NCBI GenBank assembly: GCA_963827475.1
Contig: CAWHAZ010000007.1
Coordinates: forward strand, 95,776 to 159,775
Reading direction: 5' to 3'
DNA from: an uncultured Chloroflexia bacterium
GTDB taxonomy: Bacteria > Chloroflexota > Limnocylindria > QHBO01
Length of the DNA stretch: 64,000 nt
The position numbers and the translations under genes were made by a program. Numbering within the stretch: position 1 is the stretch's first letter; the number at the start of each line of letters is the position of its first letter. Positions 14,151-40,882 of this stretch are shown here, piece after piece. The notes under the pieces were generated by a model. That model was not told where the DNA came from, did no database searches, and was given only the letters and a program-made list of their open reading frames with translations.

Positions 14151-15330
14151 TCAGTCGCCGCCGGGCGTGATCTCCACCGTCGGAGGCTCCCAGTCCTCGC
14201 CGGTCGTGTCGCCGTCGATCCCCGCCAACGCGGCAAGGCGCTCGTCGGAGTTGATCGCGGCCTCGTCCGGCGCCGCGGTGAGGATCCCCGCCGCAGTGGC
14301 GGTGTCAATGGTCTGGCCCAGGACGTCCTGGTCCAGGGCACCGATCCCGTCGGGCGCCGGCCAGACCAGCTTGTTGATCTCGTTCATCATCCAGGCCAGG
14401 TGGCCCCGACCCCAGATGCTGCCGCGGTCGATGGAGTACTGCACGCAGTCATCGGGGTTGTCCCGGCAGTACATCCAGCCCCGGAACGAGGCCTGGAGGA
14501 ATCGCGTGGCGACTTCCCTGTTGTTGCCCTCGTCCAGCCACGACTGCCGGGCGAAGATCGCGTCCTGCAGCATGGCCGTGCCGAGCTCGTTGTAGTCGAA
14601 CACGAAGAACTGGTCCGGCTGGAACAGCTCGCCCGTGTTCGGGATCCTCTAGCTCCAGGAGCTGCGCCCACTCGTTGTAGATCATCGCCTCGGCGACGTC
14701 GACGCAGTCCTGGTCGCTCGCCGCGCACCCGTCCTGGGCGGCGATGAGCTCGTTCATGTCGAAGTCCTGCTCGACGCGGGTGAAGTCCACCCCGTCCTGG
14801 AGGTCGGCCAGGATCTGGGCCGAGGCCAGGACCTCGAGCTCGTTGCCGAACGGCCACGCGCCGATGCGCTTGCCTTCCCAGTCGGACACCTCGGTGATGC
14901 CGGCGTCGGCCCACGCCACCGAGAGGGTGGCGGACCGCTGGAAGACCTGCGCCAGGTGGACGAGGTCGGACCCGGCCTCGCGCGCCTGGAGCACCTTCGG
15001 CACCCAGGCGATGGTGAACTCCGGACCGTCGGGCTGTGAGCCCACCTCCTGCGGAACGATGGTGCCGCCGCCGGGGAGGATCTCCACGGTCAGGGCAACG
15101 TCGTCGTAGTACCCCTGCTCGACGGCCGCGAAGTACCCGCCGAACTGTGCTTGGTCCAGCCACTGCAGCTGGAGCTGGACGGTGGCCGGCTCGTAGCTGA
15201 CCTGGCTCTCGGCCGCGCTCGGCGCAGCGCTCTCGCCTCCGCTCGGGCTCTCACTGGCGCTCGACTGGCAGGCGGCCAAGGTGAGCATGCCGGCTATTGC
15301 CAGCACGCCAAAGACACGCGTAACCCTCAT
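14151..15330 (-). CDS. ABC substrate-binding lipoprotein, NMT1/THI5 family (frameshift near 14640)
   Basis: Lipobox LAAC; LQLQWLDQAQFGGYFAAVEQGYY; AMIYNE; MLQDAIFA; HLAWMMNEINKL. Confidence 0.88.
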
Positions 15331-15445
15331 CTCCACTCCTCGATTTGCTGGCCCAGGGCCGGACCATCCGTGACTGCTGATTCTACGGAGGGACCGATGT
15401 TCGCGGGCGCGGGCCCTGCGCGGGTCCTGCGCGGAGGCTGCCCGA

Positions 15446-16231
15446 TCAGGCGGGCTGGTCTCCGCGCAACGAGGCGTGCCACGGGATCAGGAGTCGCTCG
15501 AGCAGAACGACCCCGAGATACAGCGCGATGCCCATCAGCGACACGACGAGGATGGCGGCCCAGGTCACGTCGAATCGGAGCGAGCTGGCCGCGGCCACCA
15601 CCACCCGCCCGAGGGTCGCGGTGAGGCCCCCGAAGTACTCGCCCACGACCGCTCCGATCAGGCTCAGCGTGGTCGCGATCTTCAGGCCGGTGAGGAAGTA
15701 GGGCAGGGCATTCGGGATCCGCACCTCGCGGGTGACCGTCAACGGTGCGGCCGCGTAGGAGCGCATGAGCTCGAGGGCCGATGGCTCGACCTGGGTGAGG
15801 CCACGCAGGGTGTTGATCATGATCGGGAAGTAGACGAGCGTGGCGGCGATCGCCATCTTCGACAGCGGGCTGAGGATGCCGAACCAGTTGTTGGCGACCG
15901 GGGCAAACGCGATGATCGGAATCGCGTTGACGGCGATCGCCAGCGGCAGGACCGTGTCCTGCGAAGCGGGGAAACGGGACACGATGAAGGCGGTGGCCAC
16001 CCCCAGGACGGTGCCGATCACCAGCCCGCCGATGGCCTCGAAGAAGGTCACGCGCGCCGCGGCGAAGATCGCGTGGCCCTCGGTCCAGTTCTCGCCGAGG
16101 GCCGCCCAGATCGCGGACGGGGCCGGCAGGGTGAACACCTGGGCTCCGGAAGCTTTGACGAGGACCTCCCAGGCGACGAGGACCCCGACGAGGATCAGCG
16201 CGGCGGGCAGGTAGCGGCGAATCGCGTTCAT
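15446..16231 (-). CDS. ABC permease (NitT/TauT family)
   Basis: LPAPSAIW, IPIIAFAP, RIPNALPYFLTGLK, GAVVGEY. Confidence 0.9.
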   Translation of the reverse strand: MNAIRRYLPAALILVGVLVAWEVLVKASGAQVFTLPAPSAIWAALGENWTEGHAIFAAARVTFFEAIGGLVIGTVLGVATAFIVSRFPASQDTVLPLAIAVNAIPIIAFAPVANNWFGILSPLSKMAIAATLVYFPIMINTLRGLTQVEPSALELMRSYAAAPLTVTREVRIPNALPYFLTGLKIATTLSLIGAVVGEYFGGLTATLGRVVVAAASSLRFDVTWAAILVVSLMGIALYLGVVLLERLLIPWHASLRGDQPA

Positions 16232-16235
16232 GTGG

Positions 16236-17090
16236 CTAGCCGACCACGCCCTCGGCCGCGGTCCGCTCGGCGGACGCGACATCGGCCTCCGGGCCTTCGC
16301 CGGCGCGGAGTGCCTCGCGGACCTCGGTGATGAACGAGAAGTAGGCCGGGCTCTCCCGCGTGTCGAGCCCGCGCGGGCGGGGGAGATCCACCTCGACCAG
16401 CCGCGTGATGCGGCCGGGCCGAGCGCTCATGACCGCCACCCGGCTCGAGAGGAAGACCGCCTCGGGGATCGAGTGGGTGACGAACACGACCGTGATCCCG
16501 GTCCGCGCCCAGATGCTCAGGACCTCCGAGTTCATCCGCTCGCGGGTCATCTCGTCGAGGGCCCCGAACGGCTCGTCCATGAGCAACAGCGACGGGGAGA
16601 AGGCCAGGGCCCGGGCGATGGCCACCCGCTGCTGCATGCCGCCCGAGAGCTGGTACGGCCGGTGGCGGGCGAAATCGGTCAGGCCGACCAGCGCGAGCAT
16701 CTCGTGTGTCCGCTCCGCCTGCGCCTTCTTGTCGTATCCGAACAGCTCGAGCGGCAGCCGGACGTTGTCCTCGATCGTCCGCCAGTCGAAGAGCACGGGG
16801 GCCTGGAAGACCATCCCGTACTCGCGATCAAGGCGCGCGCGTTCGGCCGACTTGCCGTTGACCTCCGCGGTCCCGGTGGTCGGCTTGGTGAGGTCACCGA
16901 TCACCCGCAGGAGCGTCGACTTGCCGCACCCGGAGGGCCCGATCAGCGAGACGAACTCGCCCCGACCGATGTCGAGCGAGATGTCGGTGAGGGCGACCGT
17001 CTCGCCGTCGCCCTTCTTGCCGCCGGTCCGGAACGTCTTTCCGATGCCGGCGAGCCGGACGACCGGGGCGCTGGCGTCGGCGACGCTCAT
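16236..17090 (-). CDS. ABC ATP-binding protein (NitT/TauT family)
   Basis: GPSGCGKST, LSGGMQQR, MDEPFGALD, VTH; ATG 17090 overlaps the upstream stop. Confidence 0.93.
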   Translation of the reverse strand: MSVADASAPVVRLAGIGKTFRTGGKKGDGETVALTDISLDIGRGEFVSLIGPSGCGKSTLLRVIGDLTKPTTGTAEVNGKSAERARLDREYGMVFQAPVLFDWRTIEDNVRLPLELFGYDKKAQAERTHEMLALVGLTDFARHRPYQLSGGMQQRVAIARALAFSPSLLLMDEPFGALDEMTRERMNSEVLSIWARTGITVVFVTHSIPEAVFLSSRVAVMSARPGRITRLVEVDLPRPRGLDTRESPAYFSFITEVREALRAGEGPEADVASAERTAAEGVVG

Positions 17091-17983
17091 ACGACGTCTC
17101 CGGTGGGGCTCCCGCGGACGACGCCCATCTCGACCAGCCGGACCAGCCCGAAGCACAGGATGCCCACCACCGATGCGACCAGGATCGCGCCCCACAGCTT
17201 CTCCGGCGCGACGGTATAGCTGCTGGAGAAGAAGACCAGGGCCCGTCCGAGGCCGGCCTGCAGGCTGCCGGCTCCCTCCCCCACGATGGCGCCCACGATG
17301 GCGGCGGTGGCCGTGATCTTCATGGCGGTGAACAGGTACGGGAGGGAGGCGGGGAAGCGCACCTTCCACAGGACGGCCCGCCGTGACGCCGCGTACGAGC
17401 GCATGAGCTCCAGCGCCCGCGGGTCGGGCGAGCGGAGGCCGCGCAGCATGGCGATGGTGACCGGGAAGAAGCTCAGGTAGGTGGCGACGATCACGACGCT
17501 CCCCACGTCCCGCCCCGCGAGGAACACGATGAGCGGTGCGAGGGCGATGATCGGGATCGTCTGGCTGGCCACCACGTACGGCAGGAACGCCCGCTCGATG
17601 AGCCCGGAGTGGACGAACAGGACGGCCAGGCCGATCCCCAGCAGGCCGCCGATGGTGAAGCCGATGAACGCCGAGCGCAGGGTGTACAGCGTCTGGTCGA
17701 GCAGGTAGCCGAGCAGCGTCTGCTCCGCGCCCGAGGTCAGCGGCTCGAACAGGCGCGTGAAGATGACCCAGAAGTGGGGCATGTTGATGTCGCTGGCCAG
17801 GCCGATGTCGAGCGGGGGCGTCCACACCACGACCCCGTCCATCCGGAACGGGTCACCACCCAGCACCTTGACGCCCTCCCACAGGGCCGCGATCCCGACG
17901 ATGAACAGGGCGAAGAACGCGATGCGCACCCGCCGGCTGGCGCCGGCGGACCGGGCCCGTGATGGCGGGGCGCCGGCCGTCAT
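17087..17983 (-). CDS. ABC permease (NitT/TauT family)
   Basis: PYVVASQTIPIIALAP, RFPASLPYLF, GAIVGE. Confidence 0.9.
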   Translation of the reverse strand: MTAGAPPSRARSAGASRRVRIAFFALFIVGIAALWEGVKVLGGDPFRMDGVVVWTPPLDIGLASDINMPHFWVIFTRLFEPLTSGAEQTLLGYLLDQTLYTLRSAFIGFTIGGLLGIGLAVLFVHSGLIERAFLPYVVASQTIPIIALAPLIVFLAGRDVGSVVIVATYLSFFPVTIAMLRGLRSPDPRALELMRSYAASRRAVLWKVRFPASLPYLFTAMKITATAAIVGAIVGEGAGSLQAGLGRALVFFSSSYTVAPEKLWGAILVASVVGILCFGLVRLVEMGVVRGSPTGDVV

Positions 17984-18010
17984 CGGTACGGGAGGTTGCT
18001 GGGCGGTCGG

Positions 18011-19357
18011 TCAGGCGACCGCGGCATCGGTCTCGTCCAGGGCGCGGTCGATGATCCCGAATGCCTCGCGGAGCTGCTCCTCGGTGATGCACAGCGGCGG
18101 GTTGGTGAAGACCTGGTGCCAGTGCTGCATGGTGTACAGGCCGTCCGCCCGCAACCGCGCGTCGAGTGCCGCCATCTCCGGGGAGCTGGCGTTGAACGCG
18201 GTCATCGGCTCCTTCGTCTCCGGGTTGCGGACGAGCTCGATCACGCCGAACAGACCGATGTTGCGGGTCGTGCCCACGCTTGGATGGCGTGACTCCAGGT
18301 CGGTCAGCAGTTCGCGCATGATCGGGCCCAGGCGGGCGGCGTTGCCCACCAGGTCGTCGTCGCGGAGGACGCCGACGGCGGCGATGGCCGCCGCGCAGCT
18401 GACCGGGTGGGCCGAGTAGGTCAGCCCCCCGTAGTAGACGCGGTCGTTGAAGTAGTCCGCGATCTCCGGCTTCATGGCCACCGCCCCGAGCGGGAGGTAC
18501 GAGCTGGTCAGGCCCTTGGCCATGGTCAGCAGGTCGGGCACGACGTCCCAGTGGTCGACCGCGAACCAGCGGCCCGTCCGGCCGAAGCCGGCCATCACCT
18601 CGTCGGTGATCATCAGGATCCCGTGCCGGTCGCAGATGTCGCGGATGCCCTGCAGGTAGCCGTCGGGCGGGATGAGGATGCCGTTGGTGCCGGTCACCGT
18701 CTCGAGGATGAAGGCGGCGATGGTGTGCGGGCCCTCGTACTGGATGACCTCCTCCAGGTACTCGAGCTGGCGGTCGACCGGCTCAGGCTCGGTCTGGCCC
18801 CAGCGCCATGGGTCGAGGACGCGAATGACCCCCGGGATGCCCGGCTCGTTCGCCCAACGGCGCGGGTCGCCGGTGACGCTGATGCTGCCCGCGGTGGCGC
18901 CGTGGTACGACCGATGGTGGGCCACGACCTTCTGCCGCCCGGTCACGATCCGGGCCAGGCGCAGCGCGTTCTCGTTGGCCTCCGCCCCGCCCAGGGTGAA
19001 GAAGAACTTGTCGAGGTTCCCCGGGGTGAGCGTGGCCAGCAGCTCCCCGAGGCGGCCGCGGACCTCGGTCGCGAACTGGGGGGCGGCGAACGCGAGCTGG
19101 TGGGCCTGCTCGGCGATGGCGTCGGCCACTCGTCGGTCGCCGTGACCGATGTTCACGCTCATCAGCTGCGAGTTGAAGTCGATGTACCGCTTGCCGTCGG
19201 GGTCCCAGAAGTAGATTCCCTCGCCCCGCTCGATGGCGATCGGATTGATCTTGGCCTGGGCCGACCAGCTGAAGAAGGTGTACTGCCGGTTGAGGGCGAC
19301 GACCTCCTCGGCGGTGAGGCGGCGGGTGGGCGTGACGGTCATGAGTACCTCGGGCAT
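18011..19357 (-). CDS. Class III PLP aminotransferase (candidate beta-alanine/omega-amino acid:pyruvate aminotransferase)
   Basis: DFNSQLMSVNIGH, SYHGAT, DEVMAGFGRTG, AKGLTSSYLPLG; heads the ABC importer operon. Confidence 0.88.
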   Translation of the reverse strand: MPEVLMTVTPTRRLTAEEVVALNRQYTFFSWSAQAKINPIAIERGEGIYFWDPDGKRYIDFNSQLMSVNIGHGDRRVADAIAEQAHQLAFAAPQFATEVRGRLGELLATLTPGNLDKFFFTLGGAEANENALRLARIVTGRQKVVAHHRSYHGATAGSISVTGDPRRWANEPGIPGVIRVLDPWRWGQTEPEPVDRQLEYLEEVIQYEGPHTIAAFILETVTGTNGILIPPDGYLQGIRDICDRHGILMITDEVMAGFGRTGRWFAVDHWDVVPDLLTMAKGLTSSYLPLGAVAMKPEIADYFNDRVYYGGLTYSAHPVSCAAAIAAVGVLRDDDLVGNAARLGPIMRELLTDLESRHPSVGTTRNIGLFGVIELVRNPETKEPMTAFNASSPEMAALDARLRADGLYTMQHWHQVFTNPPLCITEEQLREAFGIIDRALDETDAAVA

Positions 19358-24602: not shown

Positions 24603-25241
24603 ATGACCGATGAAGCCCCGACCGAGACACCGCCTGAGGCCCCCGCGCTCCCGCCCGACCCGACGCCTCCCGCCCGACCGGTCGGGGAGCGCCCGCCTCT
24701 CCCGGGCCGGGTGACCGCCGCGGCCATCATCCTGCTCGTGTTCGGGACCCTCTCGGCCCTGGGCAGCGCCTTCGGCGTGCTGTGGTCCCTGCTGGTCATC
24801 GGTCGGATGGGCGGAGGCTTTGGTCGCTTCGGCGGCCCGTTCGAGGGCGGGTTCGGCGCCAACTTCAACGGTGGTGGGACCGGGTGGGCCGGTTTCATGT
24901 TCTTCGTCCTCGCCCTGGCCATCGCCGCCGCGGTGGTCGGCGGTCATCTCGCCGCCGGCTGGGGCATCCTCCAGCGGCTGGCCTGGGGCCGAATCCTCGG
25001 CCTGGTGGTCAGCGGCGCCGCGCTGGTGGTGATCGTCCTCGGCGTCCTCGGAACGGTGGTCTGGGTCGCGACCCTGCCCGACCTGCGCGAGTTCGACCGC
25101 GTCCCGGAATGGTTCGCCGACTGGTTCCGCTCGGTGATGACCGCCGGCGTCGGGTTGGGCGTCCTCGTCAGCCTGGTGGTGGGCGGCGCGTACGCCTACG
25201 TCCTGTGGGTCCTGGCCCGCGCGGACGAGGTCTTCGACTGA
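24603..25241 (+). CDS. Hypothetical 4-TM membrane protein
   Basis: Four hydrophobic segments, Gly/Phe-rich loop, TAGCCT 6 nt upstream. Confidence 0.7.
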   Translation: MTDEAPTETPPEAPALPPDPTPPARPVGERPPLPGRVTAAAIILLVFGTLSALGSAFGVLWSLLVIGRMGGGFGRFGGPFEGGFGANFNGGGTGWAGFMFFVLALAIAAAVVGGHLAAGWGILQRLAWGRILGLVVSGAALVVIVLGVLGTVVWVATLPDLREFDRVPEWFADWFRSVMTAGVGLGVLVSLVVGGAYAYVLWVLARADEVFD

Positions 25242-25344
25242 CCGATCGCCGCGCCCTGGGCGGTGCCGGCTGGGCGGGGAACGGGGTGTAGAGTATCGGC
25301 TCTCTTCCCGATCAAACTGCCCGCACGGAGGGTTGATCAGACCA

Positions 25345-26194
25345 ATGGCGCGCATCGTCAAGGCCGCCCTGCTGCAGGCCGAGTGGACCGGCGACAAGGA
25401 CACCATGATCGAGAAGCACGAGCGCTACGCGCGCGAGGCCGCCAAGCAGGGCGCCCAGGTCATGTGCTTCCAGGAGCTGTTCTACGGGCCCTACTTCTGC
25501 CAGGTCCAGGATCCGCAGTACTACAGCTACACCGAGAAGATCCCGGGCGGGCCGACCACCGAGCGGATGCAGGCCCTGGCCAAGGAGACCGGCATGGTCC
25601 TCGTCGTACCGATGTACGAGGAGGACGAGGAGACCGCCGGGATCTACTACAACACCGCCGCTGTCATCGACGCCGACGGGTCGTACCTCGGCAAGTACCG
25701 GAAGACCCACATCCCCCACGTCAAGGGCTTCTGGGAGAAGTTCTACTTCCGGCCCGGCAACCTGGGATATCCGGTGTTCGACACCGCCGTCGGCAAGGTC
25801 GGCGTCTACATCTGCTACGACCGCCACTTCCCGGAGGGCGCGCGCGCCCTCGGCCTGAACGGGGCGGAGCTGGTGTTCATCCCCTCGGCCACGTCCCGCG
25901 GGCTTGAGCGAGTACCTGTGGCGCGTCGAGCAGGTCAGCCATGCGGTGGCCAACGGCTACTTCGTGGGCACCATCAACCGGGTCGGGATCGAGCACCTGG
26001 GTGACGACGACTTCTACGGGCAGTCGTACTTCGTCGACCCGCGCGGCCAGTTCATCGGCGACGTCGGAGACGCCCACGAGGAGGAGCTCCTCGTCCGCGA
26101 GCTCGACCTGGACCAGATCAACGAGGTGCGCCAGACGTGGCAGTTCTTCCGCGACCGGCGCCCCGACGCCTACGAGGACCTCGTCCGACCGTAG
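25345..26194 (+). CDS. Nitrilase-family C-N hydrolase, beta-ureidopropionase-like (frameshift ~25905)
   Basis: FQELFYGPYFC (E), YRKTHIP (K), ICYDRHFPEG (C), FWEKFYFRPGN, FFRDRRPDAY. Confidence 0.88.
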
Positions 26195-26225
26195 GTCGGC
26201 GCCGGGACGGTTGACTGCCTGACCG

Positions 26226-27248
26226 ATGGACTTCGGGTTCACCCTCAAGCTCGAGAACACCACCGACCGCACGCTCGACCTGACCCGCCGGGCGGAGGCA
26301 GCCGGGTTCACCCACGGCTGGGTGTTCGACAGCCACGTCCTGTGGCGTGACCCCTATCCCGCCCTGACCCTGATGGCGCAGGCCACGACGGCGATGCGGC
26401 TGGGGACCTGCGTCACGAACCCGGCCACCCGCGAGCCGTCGGTCACCGCGTCGACATTGGCGGAGCTGAACGAGATGAGCGGCGGCCGAATGGACCTCGG
26501 GATCGGGCGCGGGGACAGCGCCCGGCGCGTGCTCGGCAAGCCACCGACCACGATGAAGACCCTCGAAGAGGCGATCACCGTCATCCGCGACCTGGTCGAG
26601 GGACGGGCCGTCACCTACGAGGGGACGGAGATCCAGCTCACCTGGGCCGGCTCATGGACGCTGCCCGTGTGGGTCGCCGGCTACGGGCCGATGGCCCTGG
26701 CCATGACCGGACGGGTCGCCGACGGCCTGATCCTCCAGCTCGCCGATCCCGACCTCATCCGCTGGTTCGTCGGCCAGCTCCGCGAGGCGGAGGCGGCGGC
26801 CGGACGGCCGCCAGGCACGATCAAGGTCCAGGCCGCGGCGCCCGCCCACGTCGGTCCGCGCGACATCGGCCAGGATCGGACCCGCTGGTTCCCGGCGCTC
26901 GTGTCAAACCACGTCGTGGACCTCGTCAACAAGTACCCGCGCGAACAGCTGCCGGACGCGCTGACCGGCTACATCACCGACCGCGAGGGATACGACTACC
27001 ACCACCACGCGGAGGTGGGCTCGACGAACGCCGCGTTCGTCGGCGACGAGGTGACCGACCGCTTCTGCATCCTCGGTGAGCCGGCCGAGCACGTCGCCAA
27101 GCTCCACGAGCTGGCCGATGCCGGCGTCGACCAGTTCAACTTCTACCTCATGAACGGCGACGAGGAGGAGCAGCTGGACCGATACGGCCGCGAGGTCGTG
27201 CCCGCTCTCCGTAACGTGGCCGCCAACCGACACGGAGCAACGACATGA
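26226..27248 (+). CDS. Mer-like LLM-class oxidoreductase, probably F420-dependent (resembles TIGR03842/CPS_4043 family)
   Basis: WVFDSHVLWRDPY, GTCVTNPATREPSVTAS, GIGRGDSARR, AGYGP, GYDYHHHAEVG. Confidence 0.85.
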   Translation: MDFGFTLKLENTTDRTLDLTRRAEAAGFTHGWVFDSHVLWRDPYPALTLMAQATTAMRLGTCVTNPATREPSVTASTLAELNEMSGGRMDLGIGRGDSARRVLGKPPTTMKTLEEAITVIRDLVEGRAVTYEGTEIQLTWAGSWTLPVWVAGYGPMALAMTGRVADGLILQLADPDLIRWFVGQLREAEAAAGRPPGTIKVQAAAPAHVGPRDIGQDRTRWFPALVSNHVVDLVNKYPREQLPDALTGYITDREGYDYHHHAEVGSTNAAFVGDEVTDRFCILGEPAEHVAKLHELADAGVDQFNFYLMNGDEEEQLDRYGREVVPALRNVAANRHGATT

Positions 27249-27736
27249 AGGTCTCGTTCATCGCCGGGTATGGACCGATTACGCCCGATTCGGTGGCCAG
27301 CCTGAAGTTCTGGCGGGACGACGTCGGGCTGCCCATGACCGAGATCGCGCCCGACTACTGGGGGACCGATGACGTCCCCGGCGTGAACGCCTTCGCCGCG
27401 TGGCCGCTCGGCCAGGCCGCGGAGTCGTGTTTCGGGTCGAAGACCTGGCCGGAGCACATCACGGCACCCCAGGCCTGGTTGGAGCTCGACGTGGAGTCGC
27501 CGGAAGCGGTGAGCAGTGCCGCCGCCGAGCTCGAGGCAGCCGGCAATGAGATCCTCAAGCCACCGACCACCGAGCCGTGGGGCCAGACTGTTGCCCGCCT
27601 CTTGAGCCCGGAAGGGCTGCTCGTCGGCATCACCTACACCCAGTGGATGCATCGCGACGAGCATCGCGACCACGAGCATGACCACGACGAGCACGGCCAC
27701 GACGATCACGAGGGCCACGAGCACGGCGACCACTGA
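27245..27736 (+). CDS. VOC/glyoxalase-family protein with His/Asp/Glu-rich tail
   Basis: QAWLELDVES, EPWGQTVARLLSPEGLLVG; 28-aa tail with 11 His. Confidence 0.8.
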   Translation: MKVSFIAGYGPITPDSVASLKFWRDDVGLPMTEIAPDYWGTDDVPGVNAFAAWPLGQAAESCFGSKTWPEHITAPQAWLELDVESPEAVSSAAAELEAAGNEILKPPTTEPWGQTVARLLSPEGLLVGITYTQWMHRDEHRDHEHDHDEHGHDDHEGHEHGDH

Positions 27737-27774
27737 GGACCGGCTGCTCTTCCTTGGCCCCGACGAGGGCACCG

Positions 27775-27814
27775 TTGACATGTAGCGCTCCGCGATATAT
27801 CGTGTGACGATATA
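27775..27814 (+). promoter_or_regulatory. sigma70 promoter with overlapping inverted-repeat operator upstream of padR
   Basis: TTGACA (27775-80), N17, TATCGT (27798-803); IR TATATCGT-GTG-ACGATATA (27796-27814). Confidence 0.75.
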
Positions 27815-27837
27815 GAACCGACAAGGAGCGCAATCGC

Positions 27838-28879: not shown

Positions 28880-28916
28880 GCCCTTTCGCGGCGCCGATCG
28901 GCGGTACCCTTCGGTC

Positions 28917-29588: not shown

Positions 29589-29597
29589 GGTCCCCAC

Positions 29598-30782: not shown

Positions 30783-31032
30783 ACCCTGGGCCGTCTGGCA
30801 GCGGCCGAACCCGGTGATCGATGGCACCACAAAACGCGATGCCCGAGTTGCGCGGCAGCGCAATTCGGGGCTATGGTCCGCGCGTTGGGGTCGCTTCGCT
30901 TGGGGGTTGACAAGGCGATTCGTCCGGGGGACGCCGTACCCCACCGCACGCGTGACACTGGTCACTCTTCTTCCCGTCCGCCACTCGCCCGTCGCGTGGC
31001 AGGAGTCACAGCTTTGACAGGAGGACGCAATC

Positions 31033-33889: not shown

Positions 33890-33905
33890 CCCCAGAGCAA
33901 CATGG

Positions 33906-33936
33906 GAAGGGCCCGGGCGGATCGCCCGGGCCCTTC
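33906..33936 (+). terminator. Intrinsic terminator after M6 protease
   Basis: GAAGGGCCCGGGCG-GAT-CGCCCGGGCCCTTC 14-bp stem followed by GCTTTCT. Confidence 0.8.
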
Positions 33937-33980
33937 GCTTTCTGACGATTCCGCGACTCGTGGCTAGGATGGCGGCTGCC

Positions 33981-34246
33981 ATGCGCAGCCTTCGAATCGG
34001 GCTGTGGATCGGCCTCGTCGTGCTGGCGGTTGCCTGCCAGCCCGCAGCCAGCCCGGTCCCGAGCCCATCACTACCTGACGCGTCCGACATCGCCCCCGAC
34101 ATCGAGCCGAGCGCGACGCCCGAAGGGCCCGATGGAGAGCCAGATCCCTGGTCGCTCCCGACATCGAGCCCAGCCAGACGCCGGAGCAGCCGCTGGTGGC
34201 TCCGGTCGCCCCCAGCGAGCCGCCCGAGTCGCCGCTGTCCTACTGA
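33981..34246 (+). CDS. Small Pro/Ser-rich lipoprotein (frameshifted), ends ...ESPLSY
   Basis: Lipobox LAVAC-QP; low-complexity body; TGA at 34244-46. Confidence 0.55.
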
Positions 34247-34280
34247 TCTCGGGCGCGGGGGCGGACGCTACCATCGGCCC

Positions 34281-35668
34281 ATGAAGACGCTGATCACCAA
34301 CGGCACGATCGTCAACGCCGATGCCACCACGACGGGCGACGTCCTGGTCGACGGCGAGTCCATTGCCCTCATCGGTACCGATCTCGCGGCATCCACGACT
34401 CCGCCGACAAGACGATCGACGCCAGCGGCAAGTGGGTGATCCCGGGCGCCATCGACGTCCACACCCACATGGAGCTGCCGTTCGGCGGAACGTTCGCCAA
34501 GGACACGTTCGAGACCGGAACCCGCGCGGCGGCCTTCGGGGGAACGACCACGATCATCGACTTCGCGGTGCAGCCGCGGGGCAAGAGCCTGCGCGAGGGG
34601 CTGGATGCGTGGCACGCCAAGGCGGACGGCAACGCGACGATCGACTACGGCTTCCACATGATCATCAGCGACGTCCGCGACGACGTCCTGGCCGAGATGG
34701 ACCAGCTCGTCGACGAGGGGGTGACCACCTTCAAGCTGTTCACCGCCTACCCGGGCGTCTTCTTCTCCGATGACGGGGCCATCTTCCGGGCCATGCAGCA
34801 GACCGCACGCAACGGCGGGCTGATCATGATGCACGCCGAGAACGGGCTGGCCATCGACGTCGTCGCCGGGCAGACGTTCGACGAGGGCCACACCGATCCG
34901 TACTACCACGGCGTCTCGCGCTCGCCCGTCCTGGAGGGCGAGGCCACCAACCGGGTCATTCGCCTCGCCCAGACCGCGGGCGCGGCGGTGTACATCGTCC
35001 ACCTCTCCGCGCGCCATGCCCTCGACGAGGTGCGCCGGGCGCGGGACGAGGGGCTGCCGGCCTACGCCGAGACCTGCCCGCAGTACCTGTTCCTGACCCT
35101 GGACGACATGGGCAACGGCTTCGAGGGCGCGAAGTTCATCTGCTCCCCGCCGCTCCGTCCCGCGGACCACGCCCCGGAGCTGTGGAAGGGCCTCGTCCAC
35201 GACGACCTCCAGGTCGTCTCCACCGACCACTGCCCGTTCGACTTCCACGGCCAGAAGGAGATGGGCCGCGGCGACTTTCGCAAGGTGCCCAACGGCCTGC
35301 CCGGCGTGGAGAACCGGGTCGATCTCATGCACGACGGGGGGGTGGTCGGCGGCCACCTCACCCCGAACCGATGGGTCGAGATCATCTCCACCGCCCCGGC
35401 CCGCCTCTTCGGCCTGCCCCGGAAGGGTGCGGTCGCGGTGGGCGCGGACGCGGACCTCGTCGTGTACGACCCGAACCGGCGCCACACGATCAGTGCCCAG
35501 ACCCACCACATGGACGTCGACTACTCCTGCTACGAGGGCCGCGAGGTCACCGGCGGCAGCGACGTCGTCCTGTCCCGCGGCAAGGTCATCGTCGACGGCG
35601 ACGAGTGGCTCGGGGCCAAGGGGGACGGCCGGTTCCTGAAGCGGGAGCGGAGCGAGTACCTGCGCTGA
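34281..35668 (+). CDS. hydA: Dihydropyrimidinase (frameshift ~34390)
   Basis: MKTLITNGTIV, PGAIDVHTH, FKLFTAYPG, HAENG, ETCPQYL, VSTDHCPF, PNGLPGVE. Confidence 0.93.
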
Positions 35669-35688
35669 CCGCTACCCTCCCCAGACCG

Positions 35689-36292
35689 ATGCGTCCGCGA
35701 TACCTGCTGGGCGCCGCGATCGCGGCGCTGATCCTCACCGCCTGTCAGCCGTCGGCCTCGCCGGCGTCGCCATCCGCCGATGGCTCGCCTGAAGCCGGCA
35801 GGTCCATCGGTCCGATTCCGTCCCTGGTCGGCGACCCCGAGCTCGAGGCCACCCTGCCCGAGGAGGCGGCGGGGATCATCTTCTTCCAGTCGGTGTCGAT
35901 GAGCGGCCCGGACTTCATCGCGACCGAGGTCGACGAGCAGTTCCTGTCGTTCATCGACGAGCTGGGAGCCGACATCGAGGACGTCTCCGTCGCGTTCGCG
36001 CTGGGCGCCAACGCGGATGGGACGAACACCGCCTACGTCTTTGCCTTCCAGGTCGCCGGGCGCCGAATCCGCAGGAACTGATCGACGCGTTCAAGGCCGG
36101 GGCGCCGGACGAACGCGGATCCGCTGGAGTGGACCGCCGAGACGGTCGGCGGCAAGGCCGGTCGAGGTCGCCGTGCCGACCGAGGAGTTCCCGACACCTG
36201 TCGCCCTCTACGCCGTTGGCGACGTCCTGTACTTCGTCAATGCCACCGAGGAGGCGGCCTTCGAGGCGATCCTCGAACAGCTGCCCGAATAG
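35689..36292 (+). CDS. Lipoprotein of unknown function (frameshifted)
   Basis: Lipobox LTAC-QP; DPELEATLP; C-terminal LYAVGDVLYFV...LEQLPE. Confidence 0.65.
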
Positions 36293-36580: not shown

Positions 36581-36994
36581 ATGCCGCCAGCGACGACCAG
36601 CCTGGATACTGAAGCGCACCTCCGCCCTGAGCTCCGCGCCTGGCTGCTCGAGAAGCTCCGGTGGCCGGTCCTGGCGACCATCGGCAAAGACGGCATGCCG
36701 AGCCAATCGGTCGTGTGGTTCGATCTCGACCCGACCGATGACGTCGTCGTCATGAACACCCTTGCCGGCCGCCTGAAGCACCGACACCTCCAGCGTGACC
36801 CGCGGGTCAGCCTGTGCTTCGAGGACGAGGAGCACTATCTGACCATCGTGGGCCGAGCTGAGCTCTCCCCGGATCCGGGGATGGAGACGATCTGGGCCAT
36901 GGCCCGTCGCTATGGGGAGGGCGACGGCTCCTTCGCCAAGGGAGAGCGGATCAACATCCGGGTTCGTGTCGAGCGCGTGATCTGGCACCCGTGA
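36581..36994 (+). CDS. PPOX/split-barrel (FDOR) putative F420-dependent oxidoreductase
   Basis: LATIGKDGMPSQSVVWF, RLKHRHLQRDPRVSL. Confidence 0.85.
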   Translation: MPPATTSLDTEAHLRPELRAWLLEKLRWPVLATIGKDGMPSQSVVWFDLDPTDDVVVMNTLAGRLKHRHLQRDPRVSLCFEDEEHYLTIVGRAELSPDPGMETIWAMARRYGEGDGSFAKGERINIRVRVERVIWHP

Positions 36995-37992
36995 GCGGGG
37001 CCATCACTCTCGGGGCACTGCCCTGGCCCCAGTACACCGACTGGGCCTCCCTCCAGAGGGTCGGGATCCGGGCGGAGGAGCTCGGGTACGACTCGCTGTG
37101 GACGTGGGACCACCTCTATCCCATCGTCGGCAGCGCTCATGGACCGATGTTCGAGGGCTACCTGACCCTCGCCGGCTGGGCGTCGGCGACCAGCCGGGTG
37201 CGCATCGGGCTGATGGTCGGCGCCAACCCGTTCCGCAACCCGGCGCTGGTCGGGAAGATGGTCACCCAGCTCGACCACATGACCGGCGGTCGGATGACGT
37301 GCGGGATCGGCGCCGCCTGGTTCGACGACGAGCACGACGACTTCGGGATCGAGTTCGGCAGCTCGCCGGGGGAGCGGCTGCGCTGGCTGGAGGAGGCTGT
37401 CGTCATCCTGCGCGGGATGTTCGACGGGACCGAGCCGTCGGGGACGTCCCGCTACGCGACGCGCAAGGTCCGCAACGACCCGCCGCCGGTGCAGGCCCAT
37501 CTGCCGATCCTCGTCGGTGGCGGCGGTGAGCGGAAGACGCTCCGGATCGTGGCCCGATACGCGGACGCGAACAACCTGGGCGGTGGTTTCGAGCGGGTCC
37601 AGCACAAGGAATCGGTCCTGCTCCAGCACTGCGCCGAAGTCGGTCGCGACCCGGCCGAGATCGAGCGGACCGCGAACCTCGGCGTGGTCGTGATCCGCGA
37701 CACGGCGGAGGAGGCGACCCGGGTCCTCGGGGAGCTGGCCGCGCACAACGGCGGCGCCCGATCGTGGCCGAACCAGCTGGTCGGGACGCCGGAAACGGTC
37801 GCCGCCGAGCTGCGCCGGTTCGTGGGGATCGGCTATCGCCACGTGATCGCCGGCTTTCCGTCCCCATACGACCCCGAGTCGATGGAGCGCCTGGCGACCG
37901 AGGTTCGACCGATGCTCGAGGCGGAGATGGCCGAAGGGCCGCGCCCGGAGCGCGACCCCTCGACCGCTGGAGCGTCGTCGCCGACTACTTGA
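36991..37992 (+). CDS. LLM-class putative F420-dependent oxidoreductase
   Basis: YDSLWTWDHLYP, FRNPALVGKM, GIGAAWF..EH, GGGGERKTLRIVARYAD. Confidence 0.88.
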   Translation: MSGAITLGALPWPQYTDWASLQRVGIRAEELGYDSLWTWDHLYPIVGSAHGPMFEGYLTLAGWASATSRVRIGLMVGANPFRNPALVGKMVTQLDHMTGGRMTCGIGAAWFDDEHDDFGIEFGSSPGERLRWLEEAVVILRGMFDGTEPSGTSRYATRKVRNDPPPVQAHLPILVGGGGERKTLRIVARYADANNLGGGFERVQHKESVLLQHCAEVGRDPAEIERTANLGVVVIRDTAEEATRVLGELAAHNGGARSWPNQLVGTPETVAAELRRFVGIGYRHVIAGFPSPYDPESMERLATEVRPMLEAEMAEGPRPERDPSTAGASSPTT

Positions 37993-38577: not shown

Positions 38578-39511
38578 ATGCGGGTAGCGCTGCTCTCCGG
38601 CGGCACGGGCGGGGCGAAGCTGGCCCACGGGTTCCAGCAGGTCCTCGAGCCCGCCGAACGTCTGAGCGTCATCGTCAACACTGGCGACGACCTCGAGCTG
38701 TTCGGCCTCCACGTCAGCCCCGACCTCGACAGCGTCCTCTACACCCTGGCCGGCCTCGTCGACCCGGTGCGCGGCTGGGGCGTGGCCGGCGACACGGACC
38801 GCGCCCTGCGGATGCTCGAGCGCTACGGCGAGGAAACGTGGTTCTGGGTCGGCGACGCGGACCTCGGGACCCTCGTCCGCCGCTCGGCGCAGCTCCGCCG
38901 GGGCGCAACTCTCACCCAGGTCACCGCCGACATGGCAACCGCCCTCGGCGTGCGCAGCCACGTTCTGCCGGCGACCGACGACCGGCTTCGGACCCAGATC
39001 TTGACCGACGGCGGTGACATCGAATTCCAGCGCTACTTCGTCGAGCGCGGCCAGCGGGACGAGGTGCGCGGTATCAGCTTCGAGGGAGCCGCCGAGGCCC
39101 GCCCGACAGAGGCCGTGCTCCATGCCCTGAACAACGCCGACCTTGTCGTCATCGGTCCATCCAACCCCCTCGTCAGCATCGGTCCCATGCTCGCCATGAC
39201 CGAGCTTCAGGAAGCCGTGGCCGGTTCGCCCGGGAGGCGTCTGGCGGTCAGCCCCATCGTGGGCGGCCGCGCCCTGAAAGGGCCCGACCGACCGGATGCT
39301 TGCCTCGCTGGGCCACGAGGTCAGCGCGGCGGGCGTTGCCAGCATGTACGAGGGCCTGGTGGACGGGTACATCCTCGACGAGACCGATGCCGAGCTGACC
39401 CACGCGGTCGAGGCCATGGGGATGGAGGCGGTGACGGCTCCTACTGTGATGCTGACCGATGCCGACCGCGCGGGCCTGGCCCGATTCCTGCTGGAGACCG
39501 CCGGGCGCTAG
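38578..39511 (+). CDS. cofD: 2-phospho-L-lactate/PEP transferase (F420 biosynthesis; frameshift ~39290)
   Basis: LSGGTGGAKL, VNTGDD, SPDLDSVLYTLAG, IGPSNPLVSIGP, VSPIVGG.ALKGP. Confidence 0.93.
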
Positions 39512-39520
39512 GCTGCGCGG

Positions 39521-40120
39521 GTGACGACGCGGATCATCGTCCCGCACCGCGGCCTGGAGCACGCGAAGACCCGGTTGGCCGGCGTGCTCGAGCCGGCGCA
39601 GCGGGCCGAGGTTGCCGAGCGGCTCCTCCGGCACGTCCTGGATGCTGCCGTGGCCACCGGAAACGAGGTCGCGGTCATCTCCCCCGACGGCGAGCTGGAG
39701 CCTCTGGTCCATTCGGTCGGCGCCCGGCTCACCGTCCAGCACGGTCTCGGCCTGAACAGCGGCCTGCGCGAGGCACGCTCCAAGGCCGTACGGGAGGGCG
39801 TGACTCGCCTGGCGGTGGTCCACGGCGATCTCCCCGAGCTGAGCGCGGAAGACCTGATCGCTCTGCTGGACGCGGTCGGCGGCGACGAGCCAGCGGTAGC
39901 GATCGCGCCCGACGCGGCGGAGACCGGGACGAACGGGCTGGCGATGTCGCCGGCGGATGTCATCGCCTTCCAGTTCGGGGCGAACAGCTTCGCCGCGCAC
40001 CGCGGAGCGGCGCAGCGGAGCGGCGTCCGGACGGTGGTCATCGAGCGACCGGGGCTGGCATTCGACGTGGACACGCCGGCGGATCTCGAGGCGTGGGTGG
40101 CCCAGGGATTCGCCGCATGA
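39521..40120 (+). CDS. cofC: 2-phospho-L-lactate/PEP guanylyltransferase
   Basis: AKTRLA, GLN, HGDLP, GTNGL, FGANSFAAH, FDVDTPADL. Confidence 0.92.
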   Translation: MTTRIIVPHRGLEHAKTRLAGVLEPAQRAEVAERLLRHVLDAAVATGNEVAVISPDGELEPLVHSVGARLTVQHGLGLNSGLREARSKAVREGVTRLAVVHGDLPELSAEDLIALLDAVGGDEPAVAIAPDAAETGTNGLAMSPADVIAFQFGANSFAAHRGAAQRSGVRTVVIERPGLAFDVDTPADLEAWVAQGFAA

Positions 40121-40882
40121 TCGAGCTGATCCCCGTCGAGTGGAATCCCGGAGGTCGAGCTTGGTGATGACCTCGGGGAGCTCATCGCGGCGGCGCTCGG
40201 CGCCGCCGGCATCGGTCTGACCGATGACGACGTCGTGGTCGTGACCCAGAAGGTCGTGTCCAAGGCCGAGGGCCGGGTGGTGGACCTCGAGTCCGTCGAT
40301 CCGCGGCCGCAGGCCACTGACTGGGCGGAGCAGTGGGGGAAGGATGCGCGGCAGGTGGAGCTCGTCCTGCGCGAGTCGGCCGATGTGGTGCGCTGGGCCG
40401 ATGGGGGGCTGATCATCAGCCGCACCCGTCACGGGTTCGTATGCGCCAACGCGGGCGTTGACGTCTCGAACACGGGGCGTGGAGCCGGGGAGCGCGCGAC
40501 GCTGCTCCCCGAGGACCCGGATGCGTCCGCTCGGGGCATCCGGGCGCGCCTCGGCGAGCTGACCGGGGCTCACCCCGCCGTGCTGGTGAGCGACTCGTTC
40601 GGGCGGCCGTGGCGGGACGGGATCACCGACGTGACCATCGGGGCGGCGGGGATCGACGTCCTGGCCGACCTGCGTGGCACCCCGGACGCTGACGGTCGTG
40701 AGCTGCACGCCACCGTGGTGGCGGTCGGGGACGAGCTGGCATCGGCCGCCGAGCTGGCCGCGGGCAAGGCGTCGGGTCAGCCGGTGGTCGTGGTCCGCGG
40801 CTATCGGTACGCGCGCCCCGTTGGCGAGGACCATGGCGCCCGCCCGCTGGTCATGGACCGCGCCCGGAACCTGTTTTCCTAG
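40117..40882 (+). CDS. cofE: F420-0:gamma-glutamyl ligase, no nitroreductase domain (frameshift ~40140)
   Basis: VTQKVVSKAEGR, GFVCANAGVD.SN, LLPEDPDASA, DSFGRPWR.G, DELASAA. Confidence 0.92.

What the first reader, a model, noticed from the sequence alone, without database searches (positions are those of the whole stretch)
14151..40882. Candidate F420-dependent reductive pyrimidine catabolism, with an LLM enzyme in place of dihydropyrimidine dehydrogenase
Seen: within ~27 kb there is an NMT1/THI5-type ABC importer co-transcribed with a class III aminotransferase (14151-19357). An ureidopropionase-like nitrilase is followed directly by a Mer-like LLM oxidoreductase (25345-27248), then dihydropyrimidinase (34281-35668) and cofD-cofC-cofE (38578-40882). 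Established: the reductive pathway is uracil/thymine -> dihydro- (NAD(P)H DPD: PydA or PreA/PreT) -> ureido acid (PydB/HydA) -> beta-alanine (PydC) -> malonate semialdehyde (PydD aminotransferase). Mer-like LLM enzymes perform F420H2 hydride transfer. Inference: every step is represented here except DPD, and the LLM coupled to the ureidopropionase is placed to reduce the C5=C6 bond with F420H2. I recognise this LLM as resembling the functionally unassigned TIGR03842 family and know of no biochemical demonstration of this role.
Basis: partly seen in the sequence, partly recalled or inferred. Interest (0 to 1): 0.8.

Follow-up and report, generated by a model that had tools for sequence, protein, structure and literature searches.

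The report
Likely F420-dependent uracil/thymine reductase gene cluster
A soil Chloroflexota genome carries every gene for breaking down uracil and thymine except the usual first enzyme, and an uncharacterised deazaflavin (F420)-type enzyme sits in that enzyme's place in many bacterial lineages, giving a testable function for a widespread enzyme family.

Summary
The ORF at 26226-27248 is a TIGR03842 LLM (431.9 bits, cut-off 295.45) and not Mer. It follows a nitrilase-type carbamoylase. A dihydropyrimidinase, a class-III aminotransferase with an NMT1-type ABC importer, and cofD-cofC-cofE lie nearby.

- All 62 of 62 TIGR03842-positive genomes in a 401-genome phylum sample hold a dihydropyrimidinase homologue.
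- That homologue lies within 10 kb of the LLM in 30 of 34 and 33 of 39 well-flanked loci. The linkage also appears in Acidobacteriota, with a different gene order.
- Canonical PydA clusters in the same class use the same partner families, so only PydA and the LLM are exchanged.
- The window's own genome, 90% complete, has no DPD. Its only DHO_dh gene is class-2 pyrD.

Three findings run against or qualify the idea. The predicted anticorrelation fails, because 8 of 62 LLM genomes also hold PydA. Fo synthase is missing from nearly all of these genomes, so F420 would have to be made from scavenged Fo. There is no biochemical evidence.

No publication of this role was found in the held library.

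The parts
14151..15336 (-). NMT1/THI5-type periplasmic binding protein of an ABC importer, read in two frames in the window (one extra base near 14641)
   Evidence: Pfam NMT1 at 2.5e-17 on 14449-15336. Both pieces match single intact ORFs of relatives. Frame change located.
15446..16282 (-). ABC permease (BPD_transp_1)
   Evidence: 9.3e-20.
16236..17090 (-). ABC ATP-binding protein. Its ATG at 17090 overlaps the stop codon of the upstream permease.
   Evidence: ABC_tran at 5.4e-35. Start codon found.
17087..17983 (-). ABC permease (BPD_transp_1)
   Evidence: 5.6e-22.
18011..19357 (-). Class-III (omega) aminotransferase, the candidate beta-alanine/beta-aminoisobutyrate aminotransferase (PydD-like) and first gene of the importer operon
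   Evidence: Aminotran_3 at 1.1e-91. NF004718, 556 bits, over cut-off 472. Best solved relative is taurine:2-oxoglutarate aminotransferase 6jix at 8.3e-114. The same family lies in canonical PydA clusters.
25333..26194 (+). Nitrilase-superfamily N-carbamoyl amidase, the candidate beta-ureidopropionase (PydC role). One extra G near 25899 splits it into two frames.
   Evidence: CN_hydrolase on both pieces. The intact orthologue's best solved relatives are N-carbamoylputrescine amidohydrolase 5h8i (1.6e-62) and beta-ureidopropionases 2vhh and 6ftq. Indel located.
26226..27248 (+). TIGR03842-family luciferase-like (LLM) F420-class oxidoreductase, proposed F420H2:uracil/thymine reductase
   Evidence: TIGR03842 at 431.9 bits against cut-off 295.45, with Mer models below their cut-offs. 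The best solved relatives are all F420 enzymes. The AlphaFold2 model has pLDDT 88.1. Conserved neighbourhood shown.
27245..27736 (+). VOC/glyoxalase-fold protein that overlaps the LLM stop codon; role unknown
   Evidence: Pfam Glyoxalase at 2.1e-05 (series). No NCBIfam hit. It recurs next to the LLM in close relatives.
34281..35668 (+). Dihydropyrimidinase (PydB). ATG at 34281, with a frame change near 34399.
   Evidence: TIGR02033 at 522 bits, cut-off 393. N-terminus and indel. Public contigs lack the two extra bases.
36581..37992 (+). F420-class PPOX-fold oxidoreductase (36581-36994) and a second LLM (36991-37992). These are F420-related neighbours and are not shown to belong to the pathway.
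   Evidence: TIGR03618 at 96.3 bits, cut-off 79. TIGR03560 at 212 bits, below cut-off 231. Pfam results.
38578..40882 (+). cofD (38578-39511, one extra base near 39276), cofC (39512-40120) and cofE (40130-40882). Together these encode the conversion of Fo to F420.
   Evidence: Pfam CofD, CofC and F420_ligase. Frame change located.

Best explanation
The window encodes a reductive pyrimidine (Pyd-type) catabolic pathway in which the TIGR03842 luciferase-like enzyme at 26226-27248 does the job of dihydropyrimidine dehydrogenase.

Proposed sequence of events, all inferred:
1. Uracil or thymine is taken up by the NMT1-type ABC importer. Other lineages use an NCS1 permease instead.
2. The LLM transfers a hydride from C5 of F420H2 to C6 of the base, and C5 is protonated, giving 5,6-dihydrouracil or 5,6-dihydrothymine.
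3. Dihydropyrimidinase (34281-35668) opens the ring.
4. The nitrilase-type carbamoylase (25333-26194) releases beta-alanine or beta-aminoisobutyrate, CO2 and NH3.
5. The class-III aminotransferase (18011-19357) recovers the second nitrogen.
6. In relatives, an aldehyde dehydrogenase takes the semialdehyde onward.

What is shown: family memberships, gene order, co-occurrence, and the lack of a canonical DPD in this genome. What is inferred: the substrate, the direction of the reaction, the use of F420H2 and the transporter's ligand.

F420 would be made from imported Fo by CofC, CofD and CofE, because no Fo synthase was found in the genome.
For: 1. Family. TIGR03842 scores 431.9 bits against cut-off 295.45 over the full length, positions 1-329. 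The nearest solved proteins are all F420-dependent LLMs: Mer, FGD2/hydroxymycolate dehydrogenase, Fgd and Adf. They precede any FMN enzyme in both the sequence searches and the fold search.

2. Co-occurrence. In 401 genomes of the phylum, 62 hold TIGR03842. All 62 of 62 hold a TIGR02033-type hit at E<=1e-80, against 117 of 339 of the rest. Presence and absence track each other within genera. In g12 the same 2 of 4 genomes hold both, and in g13 0 of 6 genomes hold either.

3. Linkage. I fetched 40 of the 62 loci. Of these, 34 have at least 5 kb on both sides:
- DHP within 10 kb in 30 of 34
- a carbamoylase (nitrilase-type or M20) in 29 of 34
- a nucleobase-type transporter (NCS1 or NMT1-ABC) in 21 of 34
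- the aminotransferase in 22 of 34
Of the 80 named loci, 39 are well flanked. They give DHP in 33 of 39 and a carbamoylase in 31 of 39.

4. Gene order differs while content stays the same. Limnocylindria have Nit>LLM>DHP. Family f18 has NCS1>LLM>Nit>DHP>ALDH>AT3. Families f14 and f42 have ABC>LLM>DHP>M20. Acidobacteriota have DHP< LLM> NCS1< Nit<.

5. Slot swap. Canonical clusters in the same phylum hold a fused PydA (Fer4_20 + Pyr_redox_2 + DHO_dh + Fer4_21) or PreT/PreA. These sit together with DHP, the same nitrilase family (60-86% identical to the intact orthologue from L047, the same-genus relative G046), the same aminotransferase, ALDH and NCS1.

6. DHP phylogeny. The DHPs linked to PydA in family f2 nest inside the clade of LLM-linked DHPs (SH-aLRT 97-99). 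They lie apart from a HyuA-type clade of 9 of the 13 uric-acid-cluster DHPs (quick tree).

7. Pathway hole. The window's genome, 90% complete, has no PreA/PydA hit. The best NF006183 match is 26.7 bits, to a ferredoxin motif. Its single DHO_dh locus is class-2 PyrD. 54 of the 62 LLM genomes have no hit over the cut-off. The same is true of 0 of 20 LLM-bearing genomes, 17 from Acidobacteriota, 2 from Actinomycetota and 1 Ktedonobacterales (Chloroflexota).

8. F420 link. CofD is over its cut-off in 60 of 61 LLM genomes, against 37 of 61 evenly picked LLM-negative genomes.

9. Precedent. PMC12507026 (passages read) proposes, also from gene context only, an F420 LLM in place of the DPD-like YgfK/UacX reductase in a Chloroflexota uric-acid pathway.
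Against: - There is no biochemical evidence for any member of the family.
- The anticorrelation with PydA fails in family f2. 8 of 62 LLM genomes hold a PydA over the cut-off, against 3 of 339 LLM-negative genomes. G365 and G221 carry two complete clusters, one of each type. The LLM cluster could therefore serve a different substrate from uracil.
- Fo synthase was not found in the window's genome, nor in any of 31 genomes of its family. CofH is over its cut-off in only 3 of 61 LLM genomes. F420 supply therefore depends on an untested Fo-scavenging step.
- No Fno was found, and only an Fgd-like LLM below its cut-off is available to make F420H2.
- The carbamoylase scores best against N-carbamoylputrescine amidase and reaches no NCBIfam cut-off.
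- A subgroup of TIGR03842 loci lies by cofE and other LLMs without Nit or DHP. Examples are L064, L147, L149 and L157.
- In the window the DHP gene is 7 kb from the LLM, with unrelated genes between them.
- Related genomes are not independent, so the counts overstate the number of independent events.
Confidence: 0.68

Rival explanations
1. The LLM belongs to the same type of pathway but reduces a different ring from uracil or thymine. Candidates include another substituted or modified pyrimidine, or a precursor of a hydantoin-like ring. The product would still be a cyclic ureide that the hydantoinase-family enzyme opens. On this reading the cluster is a parallel pathway and not a replacement for PydA.
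For: - Eight genomes hold both a PydA and the LLM. In G365 and G221 each has its own DHP and nitrilase copy.
- TIGR02033-type enzymes also serve a purine pathway in this phylum (PMC12507026), so the family name does not fix the substrate.
- NCS1 and NMT1-type transporters carry many different heterocycles. This point is recalled knowledge of those families.
Against: - The DHPs and nitrilases of the two cluster types are close relatives within one clade, which argues for the same intermediates.
- In 54 of 62 LLM genomes, and in the window's genome, no other candidate for uracil reduction was found.
- The downstream enzymes, an omega-aminotransferase and an aldehyde dehydrogenase, fit beta-amino acids.
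Confidence: 0.14
2. The LLM acts downstream in the pathway. For example, it could be an F420H2-dependent malonate or methylmalonate semialdehyde reductase playing a PydE-like role. The dihydropyrimidine would then be taken up ready-made or formed by an unrecognised enzyme.
For: - Several characterised F420 LLMs (Fgd, Adf, hydroxymycolate dehydrogenase) interconvert alcohols and carbonyls, and they are among the nearest solved relatives.
- PydE-type reductases are known members of Pyd clusters (PMC7332683, passages read).
- The aminotransferase is present within 10 kb in 22 of 34 loci.
Against: - The LLM is tied most tightly to DHP and the carbamoylase. It is kept in clusters that have no aminotransferase within 10 kb, including most of the Acidobacteriota loci and families f14, f42 and f3.
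- Many clusters already hold an aldehyde dehydrogenase for the semialdehyde.
- Canonical PydA clusters in the same class have the same partner genes but no LLM. This fits a swap with PydA and not an added downstream step.
Confidence: 0.07
3. The association reflects shared regulation or nitrogen-scavenging islands and has no common pathway behind it. Alternatively, the LLM uses FMN and oxygen like RutA and attacks the ring oxidatively.
For: - RutA, an LLM, is a known pyrimidine oxygenase (recalled knowledge).
- Fo synthase is missing from most of these genomes.
Against: - Linkage persists through rearrangements in two phyla.
- The protein is nearest to Mer, and the F420 LLM models outrank the FMN models.
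- CofD is present in 60 of 61 LLM genomes.
- An oxidative ring cleavage would make DHP and the carbamoylase unnecessary.
Confidence: 0.05

Closest known systems
Reductive pyrimidine degradation (Pyd) gene clusters: PydA/PreTA, PydB, PydC, PydD, with PydE or malonate-semialdehyde dehydrogenase
   Same: The same set of steps and partner families is present: dihydropyrimidinase (TIGR02033), a carbamoylase of nitrilase or M20 type, a class-III aminotransferase, an aldehyde dehydrogenase and a nucleobase transporter. The cluster composition follows the description in PMC7332683 (passages read).
   Different: There is no PydA/PreA-type FMN and Fe-S enzyme. An unrelated TIM-barrel LLM of the F420 class sits in its place. 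All PydA variants in that paper (NADPH-, NADH- and ferredoxin-dependent) keep the DHODH-like FMN domain.
Mer, F420-dependent methylenetetrahydromethanopterin reductase (8qpl, 1z69, 1f07)
   Same: Mer is the nearest characterised homologue. A profile of the family matches it at E=1.7e-56 over the full length, and the fold search gives TM 0.77-0.79. The barrel and the N-terminal motifs are shared.
   Different: The window protein scores below both Mer cut-offs: 146.7 against 276 and 128.7 against 348.7. The segment at about residues 217-270 does not align with Mer. It holds family-invariant residues R220, W221, F222, H229 and R253, and near-invariant N228, Y256, Y258 and H261. The organisms are non-methanogenic bacteria.
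Putative F420 'luciferase-family' yanthine reductase of Chloroflexota uric-acid clusters (PMC12507026)
   Same: The idea is the same: an F420 LLM is proposed from gene context to replace a DPD-like reductase (YgfK/UacX) in a reductive nucleobase pathway of Chloroflexota.
   Different: That is a different pathway, with SsnA, YgeW, YgeX and XdhD as partners and a purine ring as substrate. Those partners are absent around the TIGR03842 loci examined here. I did not test whether that LLM is a TIGR03842 member.
RutA pyrimidine oxygenase (FMN-dependent LLM)
   Same: It has a luciferase-like fold and acts on uracil (recalled knowledge).
   Different: RutA uses FMNH2 and O2 to cleave the ring and works with RutB-G, not with DHP and a carbamoylase. 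No RutA model is among the 25 best of the 31 NCBIfam families listed for the window protein.

Membership tests
TIGR03842 (F420_CPS_4043) LLM family | Whole-protein score over the curated cut-off, with a full-length match | tested here: met
   431.9 bits against cut-off 295.45; residues 2-328 match profile positions 1-329. The same result came from the genome search.
Mer (TIGR03555 / NF002619) | Score over the equivalog cut-off | tested here: not met
   128.7 bits against cut-off 348.7, and 146.7 bits against cut-off 276.
F420-dependent LLM class | Closer to F420 enzymes than to FMN enzymes in both sequence and fold | tested here: met
   In the PDB sequence searches and the fold search, the best hits are all F420 enzymes: Mer, FGD2, Adf and Fgd.
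F420-dependent LLM class | Found only in genomes able to make F420 | tested here: inconclusive
   CofD is over its cut-off in 60 of 61 LLM genomes against 37 of 61 controls. However, CofH (Fo synthase) is over its cut-off in only 3 of 61 and was not found in the window's genome.
F420-dependent LLM class | Binds F420 and transfers hydride directly | not testable with these tools
   This needs purified protein.
Dihydropyrimidine dehydrogenase (PydA/PreA, NF006183; DHO_dh fold) | DHODH-like FMN domain with Fe-S domains | tested here: not met
   The LLM has only the Bac_luciferase domain. It may work like a DPD, but it is not a member of that family.
Reductive Pyd pathway cluster | PydB dihydropyrimidinase present | tested here: met
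   TIGR02033 at 522 bits, cut-off 393. The intact orthologue scores 559.7 bits.
Reductive Pyd pathway cluster | PydC beta-ureidopropionase present | tested here: inconclusive
   The nitrilase-type enzyme is related to solved beta-ureidopropionases (6e-52 to 7e-49) but is nearer to N-carbamoylputrescine amidase, and it reaches no NCBIfam cut-off. The same family sits in canonical PydA clusters.
Reductive Pyd pathway cluster | Canonical PydA/PreTA present in the genome | tested here: not met
   No hit in G000 beyond ferredoxin motifs. The only DHO_dh locus is class-2 PyrD. The genome is 90% complete.

The most novel reading that the evidence does not exclude
TIGR03842 enzymes are a widespread dihydropyrimidine dehydrogenase that is not homologous to PydA and runs on F420H2. 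They would give the deazaflavin cofactor a role in central nucleobase catabolism in soil Chloroflexota and Acidobacteriota. Most of the Chloroflexota carriers keep cofC, cofD and cofE but lack Fo synthase. Their pyrimidine catabolism would therefore depend on deazaflavin (Fo) released by other members of the community.
Probability: 0.5. Interest if true: 0.82.

Novelty: new variant of a known kind. Interest (0 to 1): 0.72.

Why it matters
All dihydropyrimidine dehydrogenases described in the papers I read use the same DHODH-like FMN domain and differ only in electron donor: NADPH, NADH or ferredoxin (PMC7332683). An unrelated F420-dependent TIM-barrel enzyme doing this step would be a clear case of non-orthologous displacement in a textbook pathway.

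It would also assign a function to a 'hypothetical equivalog' family. One scan found at least 596 loci of this family among species-representative genomes.

The 2021 F420 review lists as open the question of why Chloroflexi make or use F420 (PMC8498797, outlook passage). This role would give one concrete answer.

The prediction can be tested directly with one purified protein and a spectrophotometer.

Tried and rejected
Anticorrelation with PydA. It did not hold: PydA over the cut-off is commoner among LLM genomes (8 of 62) than among the others (3 of 339). I kept the hypothesis because those genomes carry two complete clusters.

'DHP without DPD' as an argument on its own. I rejected this. 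Many DHP-positive genomes with neither enzyme turned out to hold uric-acid-type clusters: an SsnA-like amidohydrolase, an OTCase-like gene, carbamate kinase, a PALP lyase, an XdhD-like Mo enzyme and AllG.

Genome-wide frameshift rate from a GC3 frame plot. The measure also counts ordinary gene boundaries, so it was not informative. It gave 2.7 per 10 kb here against 1.2-2.0 in relatives. I dropped it.

The frameshift at 25899 in public runs. It is not among the rows shown, where 32 indel rows were cut. It was therefore not checked against reads.

Contigs from RNA libraries. Two metatranscriptome runs give contigs 92-99% alike that cover all 30 bins, including the LLM. The tool warns that such libraries can hold DNA and that the contigs may come from relatives. 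I do not count this as proof of expression or of habitat.

Structure. The AlphaFold2 model (pLDDT 88.1) and the fold search confirm only the class. No coordinates were available, so I could not inspect the pocket or dock a ligand. The segment at 230-270 has low confidence.

Specificity of neighbouring genes. The VOC protein, the PLP decarboxylase, the AAA_28 protein and two ORFs with no family match gave no usable NCBIfam assignment.

Literature. Searches for F420 together with dihydropyrimidine dehydrogenase, dihydrouracil, hydantoinase, uracil, reductive pyrimidine, TIGR03842 or CPS_4043 found no description of this role. The supplements of PMC12507026 and PMC8498797 may hold gene lists that bear on this.

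Full report
What is in the window

The DNA is about 70% G+C. It lies at the end of contig C7 of a 1.92-Mb, 7-contig genome that is 90% complete. I called genes from third-position G+C and scanned them against Pfam and NCBIfam.

The minus strand carries a class-III aminotransferase (18011-19357; NF004718, 556 bits, cut-off 472). It is followed by a permease, an ABC ATPase, a second permease and an NMT1/THI5-type binding protein (down to 14151). Gaps are short, and one start codon overlaps the preceding stop at 17087-17090.

The plus strand carries these genes:
- a CN_hydrolase (25333-26194)
- directly after it, the luciferase-like protein (26226-27248)
- a small VOC-fold protein whose start overlaps the LLM stop
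- 7 kb further on, a dihydropyrimidinase (34281-35668; TIGR02033, 522 bits, cut-off 393)
- an F420-class PPOX protein and a second LLM (36581-37992)
- cofD, cofC and cofE (38578-40882)

The LLM is a member of TIGR03842 (431.9 bits, cut-off 295.45, full length). It fails both Mer models.

Frame changes

Four of these genes switch frame once in the window. Compared with close relatives:
- the carbamoylase has one extra G near 25899, giving GGG where three relatives have GG
- cofD has one extra base near 39276 and the binding protein one near 14641, both beside GGG runs
- the dihydropyrimidinase has two extra bases near 34399

Contigs from four public runs, 92-99% alike, lack the two bases at 34400 and 34403. 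They also differ from the window by eight single-base indels between 32501 and 33032. I read these as assembly indel errors and not gene decay. The 25899 site itself could not be checked.

Which organism

The nearest loci in species-representative genomes are 89-91% identical over the LLM. They are titled 'Candidatus Limnocylindria' or Chloroflexota MAGs. The 'phylum' samples below are therefore Chloroflexota.

Is the LLM tied to pyrimidine-type genes elsewhere

In 401 genomes of the phylum, 62 hold TIGR03842 over its cut-off. All 62 also hold a TIGR02033-type hit at E<=1e-80, against 117 of the other 339. Within genera the two go together. In g12 the same two of four genomes hold both, and in g13 none of six holds either.

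I fetched 20 kb around 40 of the 62 loci and looked for the window's proteins in them. Of the 34 loci with at least 5 kb on both sides:
- 30 have the dihydropyrimidinase within 10 kb (24 within 3 kb)
- 29 have a carbamoylase
- 21 have a nucleobase-type transporter
- 22 have the aminotransferase
- 15 have an aldehyde dehydrogenase

A scan of named genome contigs found at least 596 relatives, of which 80 were kept. Of the 39 that are well flanked, 33 have the dihydropyrimidinase and 31 a carbamoylase within 10 kb.

Content is conserved while order is not:
- Limnocylindria: Nit>LLM>DHP
- family f18: NCS1>LLM>Nit>DHP>ALDH>AT3
- families f14 and f42: ABC importer>LLM>DHP>M20 carbamoylase
- Acidobacteriota: DHP< LLM> NCS1< Nit<

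The unnamed neighbour clusters were identified as aldehyde dehydrogenase, an NCS1 nucleobase permease (TIGR00800, 405.9 bits, cut-off 353) and a hydantoinase/carbamoylase-family M20 amidase (TIGR01879, 285 bits, cut-off 204). The minimal recurring set is a transporter, the LLM, a ring-opening amidohydrolase and a carbamoylase. That is the three-step Pyd pathway plus uptake, with the LLM as the only oxidoreductase.

Is a canonical first enzyme present

The window's genome has a single DHO_dh locus, and it is class-2 PyrD (TIGR01036). The PreA model NF006183 finds only ferredoxin motifs there, at 26.7 bits or less.

Across the phylum sample the model is over its cut-off in 11 of 401 genomes. Eight of the 11 are LLM genomes, all in family f2.

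In 20 further LLM-bearing genomes (17 Acidobacteriota, 2 Actinomycetota and 1 Ktedonobacterales, which is Chloroflexota), none is over the cut-off. Fifteen have one hit of about 150 bits, at the level of a biosynthetic class-1 PyrD.

What the double carriers show

I fetched the PydA loci. In G221 an 878-residue fused PydA (Fer4_20, Pyr_redox_2, DHO_dh, Fer4_21) lies between an aldehyde dehydrogenase and a dihydropyrimidinase plus nitrilase pair. In G365 the same block continues with the aminotransferase and an NCS1 permease. In the LLM-negative genomes G077 and G211, PreA/PreT-type genes sit with DHP, NCS1, the nitrilase, the aminotransferase and ALDH.

The partner families are the ones found around the LLM. 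The nitrilases are 60-86% identical to the intact orthologue from L047 (the same-genus relative G046). The canonical and LLM clusters thus differ essentially in one gene.

In a quick maximum-likelihood tree of 57 dihydropyrimidinases, the three PydA-linked proteins of family f2 nest inside the LLM-linked clade (SH-aLRT 97-99). They lie apart from a separate clade holding 9 of the 13 uric-acid-cluster enzymes, the other four lying elsewhere in the tree.

This is what non-orthologous displacement at the PydA position would look like. It is the strongest evidence here. It also leaves room for the LLM cluster to be a parallel route for a related substrate.

Why many genomes have DHP and neither enzyme

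Twenty such loci mostly carry SsnA-like, OTCase-like, carbamate kinase, PALP-lyase, XdhD-like and AllG genes. This is the reductive uric-acid pathway described in PMC12507026.

That paper (abstract and passages read) also notes that Chloroflexota clusters lack YgfK/UacX. They hold a putative F420 luciferase-family reductase instead. This is an independent precedent for the same kind of swap, argued from gene context only.

F420

The LLM's nearest solved relatives are all F420 enzymes. The AlphaFold2 model is confident (pLDDT 88.1, pTM 0.88) except at about residues 230-270. That is also where the family stops aligning with Mer and holds several invariant Arg, Trp, His and Tyr residues. I take this to be the substrate-side region, which is an inference.

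CofD is over its cut-off in 60 of 61 LLM genomes, against 37 of 61 evenly picked LLM-negative genomes.

Unexpectedly, neither CofG nor CofH was found in the window's genome. CofH was not found in any of 31 genomes of its family, and it is over its cut-off in only 3 of 61 LLM genomes. If the enzyme uses F420, these organisms must import Fo. No Fno was found, and only an Fgd-like LLM below its cut-off.

Mechanism proposed

F420H2 would donate a hydride to C6 of uracil or thymine, with protonation at C5. This is the same overall chemistry as the FMN site of PydA. Hydride delivery by F420H2 to activated C=C bonds is known for other F420 enzymes (recalled, not checked here). The downstream steps follow the established Pyd pathway as laid out in PMC7332683.

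Literature

Eight full-text searches of the held library found no paper describing this role or naming TIGR03842. The 2021 F420 review contains no occurrence of 'uracil', and its outlook lists the role of F420 in Chloroflexi as open. Subscription journals and supplements were not searchable.

Verdict

I give 0.68 to the LLM being the pathway's F420H2-dependent uracil/thymine reductase. I give about 0.14 to a related but different substrate, about 0.07 to a downstream role, and the remainder to other readings.

Noticed in passing
whole genome G000; window 38578-40882: cofC, cofD and cofE are present, but no Fo synthase (CofG/CofH/FbiC) was found in the window's genome. CofH was also not found in any of 31 genomes of its family, and it is over its cut-off in only 3 of 61 TIGR03842-bearing Chloroflexota, although CofD is present in 60 of 61. 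This suggests a lineage-wide dependence on scavenged Fo.
   Followed up: partly
window 14641, 25899, 34399, 39276 and 32501-33032: There are single-base or two-base frame changes, three of them beside GGG runs. Eight more indels in the M6-peptidase region disagree with contigs from four public runs. The assembly seems to carry homopolymer-type indel errors. The only DHO_dh gene (pyrD on C5) is also read in two frames.
   Followed up: partly
loci L087-L104 (Chloroflexota genomes without the LLM): Dihydropyrimidinase-like genes there sit in reductive uric-acid-type clusters. These hold SsnA-like, OTCase-like, carbamate kinase, PALP lyase, XdhD-like and AllG genes, and some have SelB nearby. A TIGR02033 hit alone therefore does not indicate pyrimidine catabolism.
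   Followed up: partly
L058 and L187 (G365); L188 (G221): Some Limnocylindria genomes hold two complete clusters, one built around a fused 878-residue PydA and one around the LLM. Each has its own DHP and nitrilase.
   Followed up: partly
L064, L143, L144, L147-L149, L153, L157, L160: A subgroup of TIGR03842 loci lies beside cofE, other LLMs and a more distant class-III aminotransferase (43-48% identity), often without Nit or DHP nearby. It may be a functionally distinct branch.
   Followed up: no
window 22534-23940 (-): A group-II PLP decarboxylase recurs divergently upstream of Nit-LLM in Limnocylindria. Its specificity is unknown. It has only weak matches to diaminobutyrate decarboxylase and PanP aspartate decarboxylase, far below their cut-offs.
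   Followed up: partly
window 27245-27736 (+): The start of a VOC/glyoxalase-fold gene overlaps the LLM stop codon. It recurs next to the LLM in close relatives: 3 of 40 and 7 of 80 loci. It has no family assignment beyond the fold.
   Followed up: partly
window 40130-40882: The CofE Pfam match begins at residue 6 of the stop-to-stop frame, but the first ATG, GTG or TTG in that frame is at 40235. The cause could be an unusual start codon or another indel near 40121-40145.
   Followed up: no
window 24900-36000: Contigs from two rhizosphere metatranscriptome libraries and two mine-drainage DNA runs, 92-99% alike, cover the whole stretch. Related populations therefore occur in several studies. 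Whether the RNA-library contigs reflect transcription cannot be told.
   Followed up: partly
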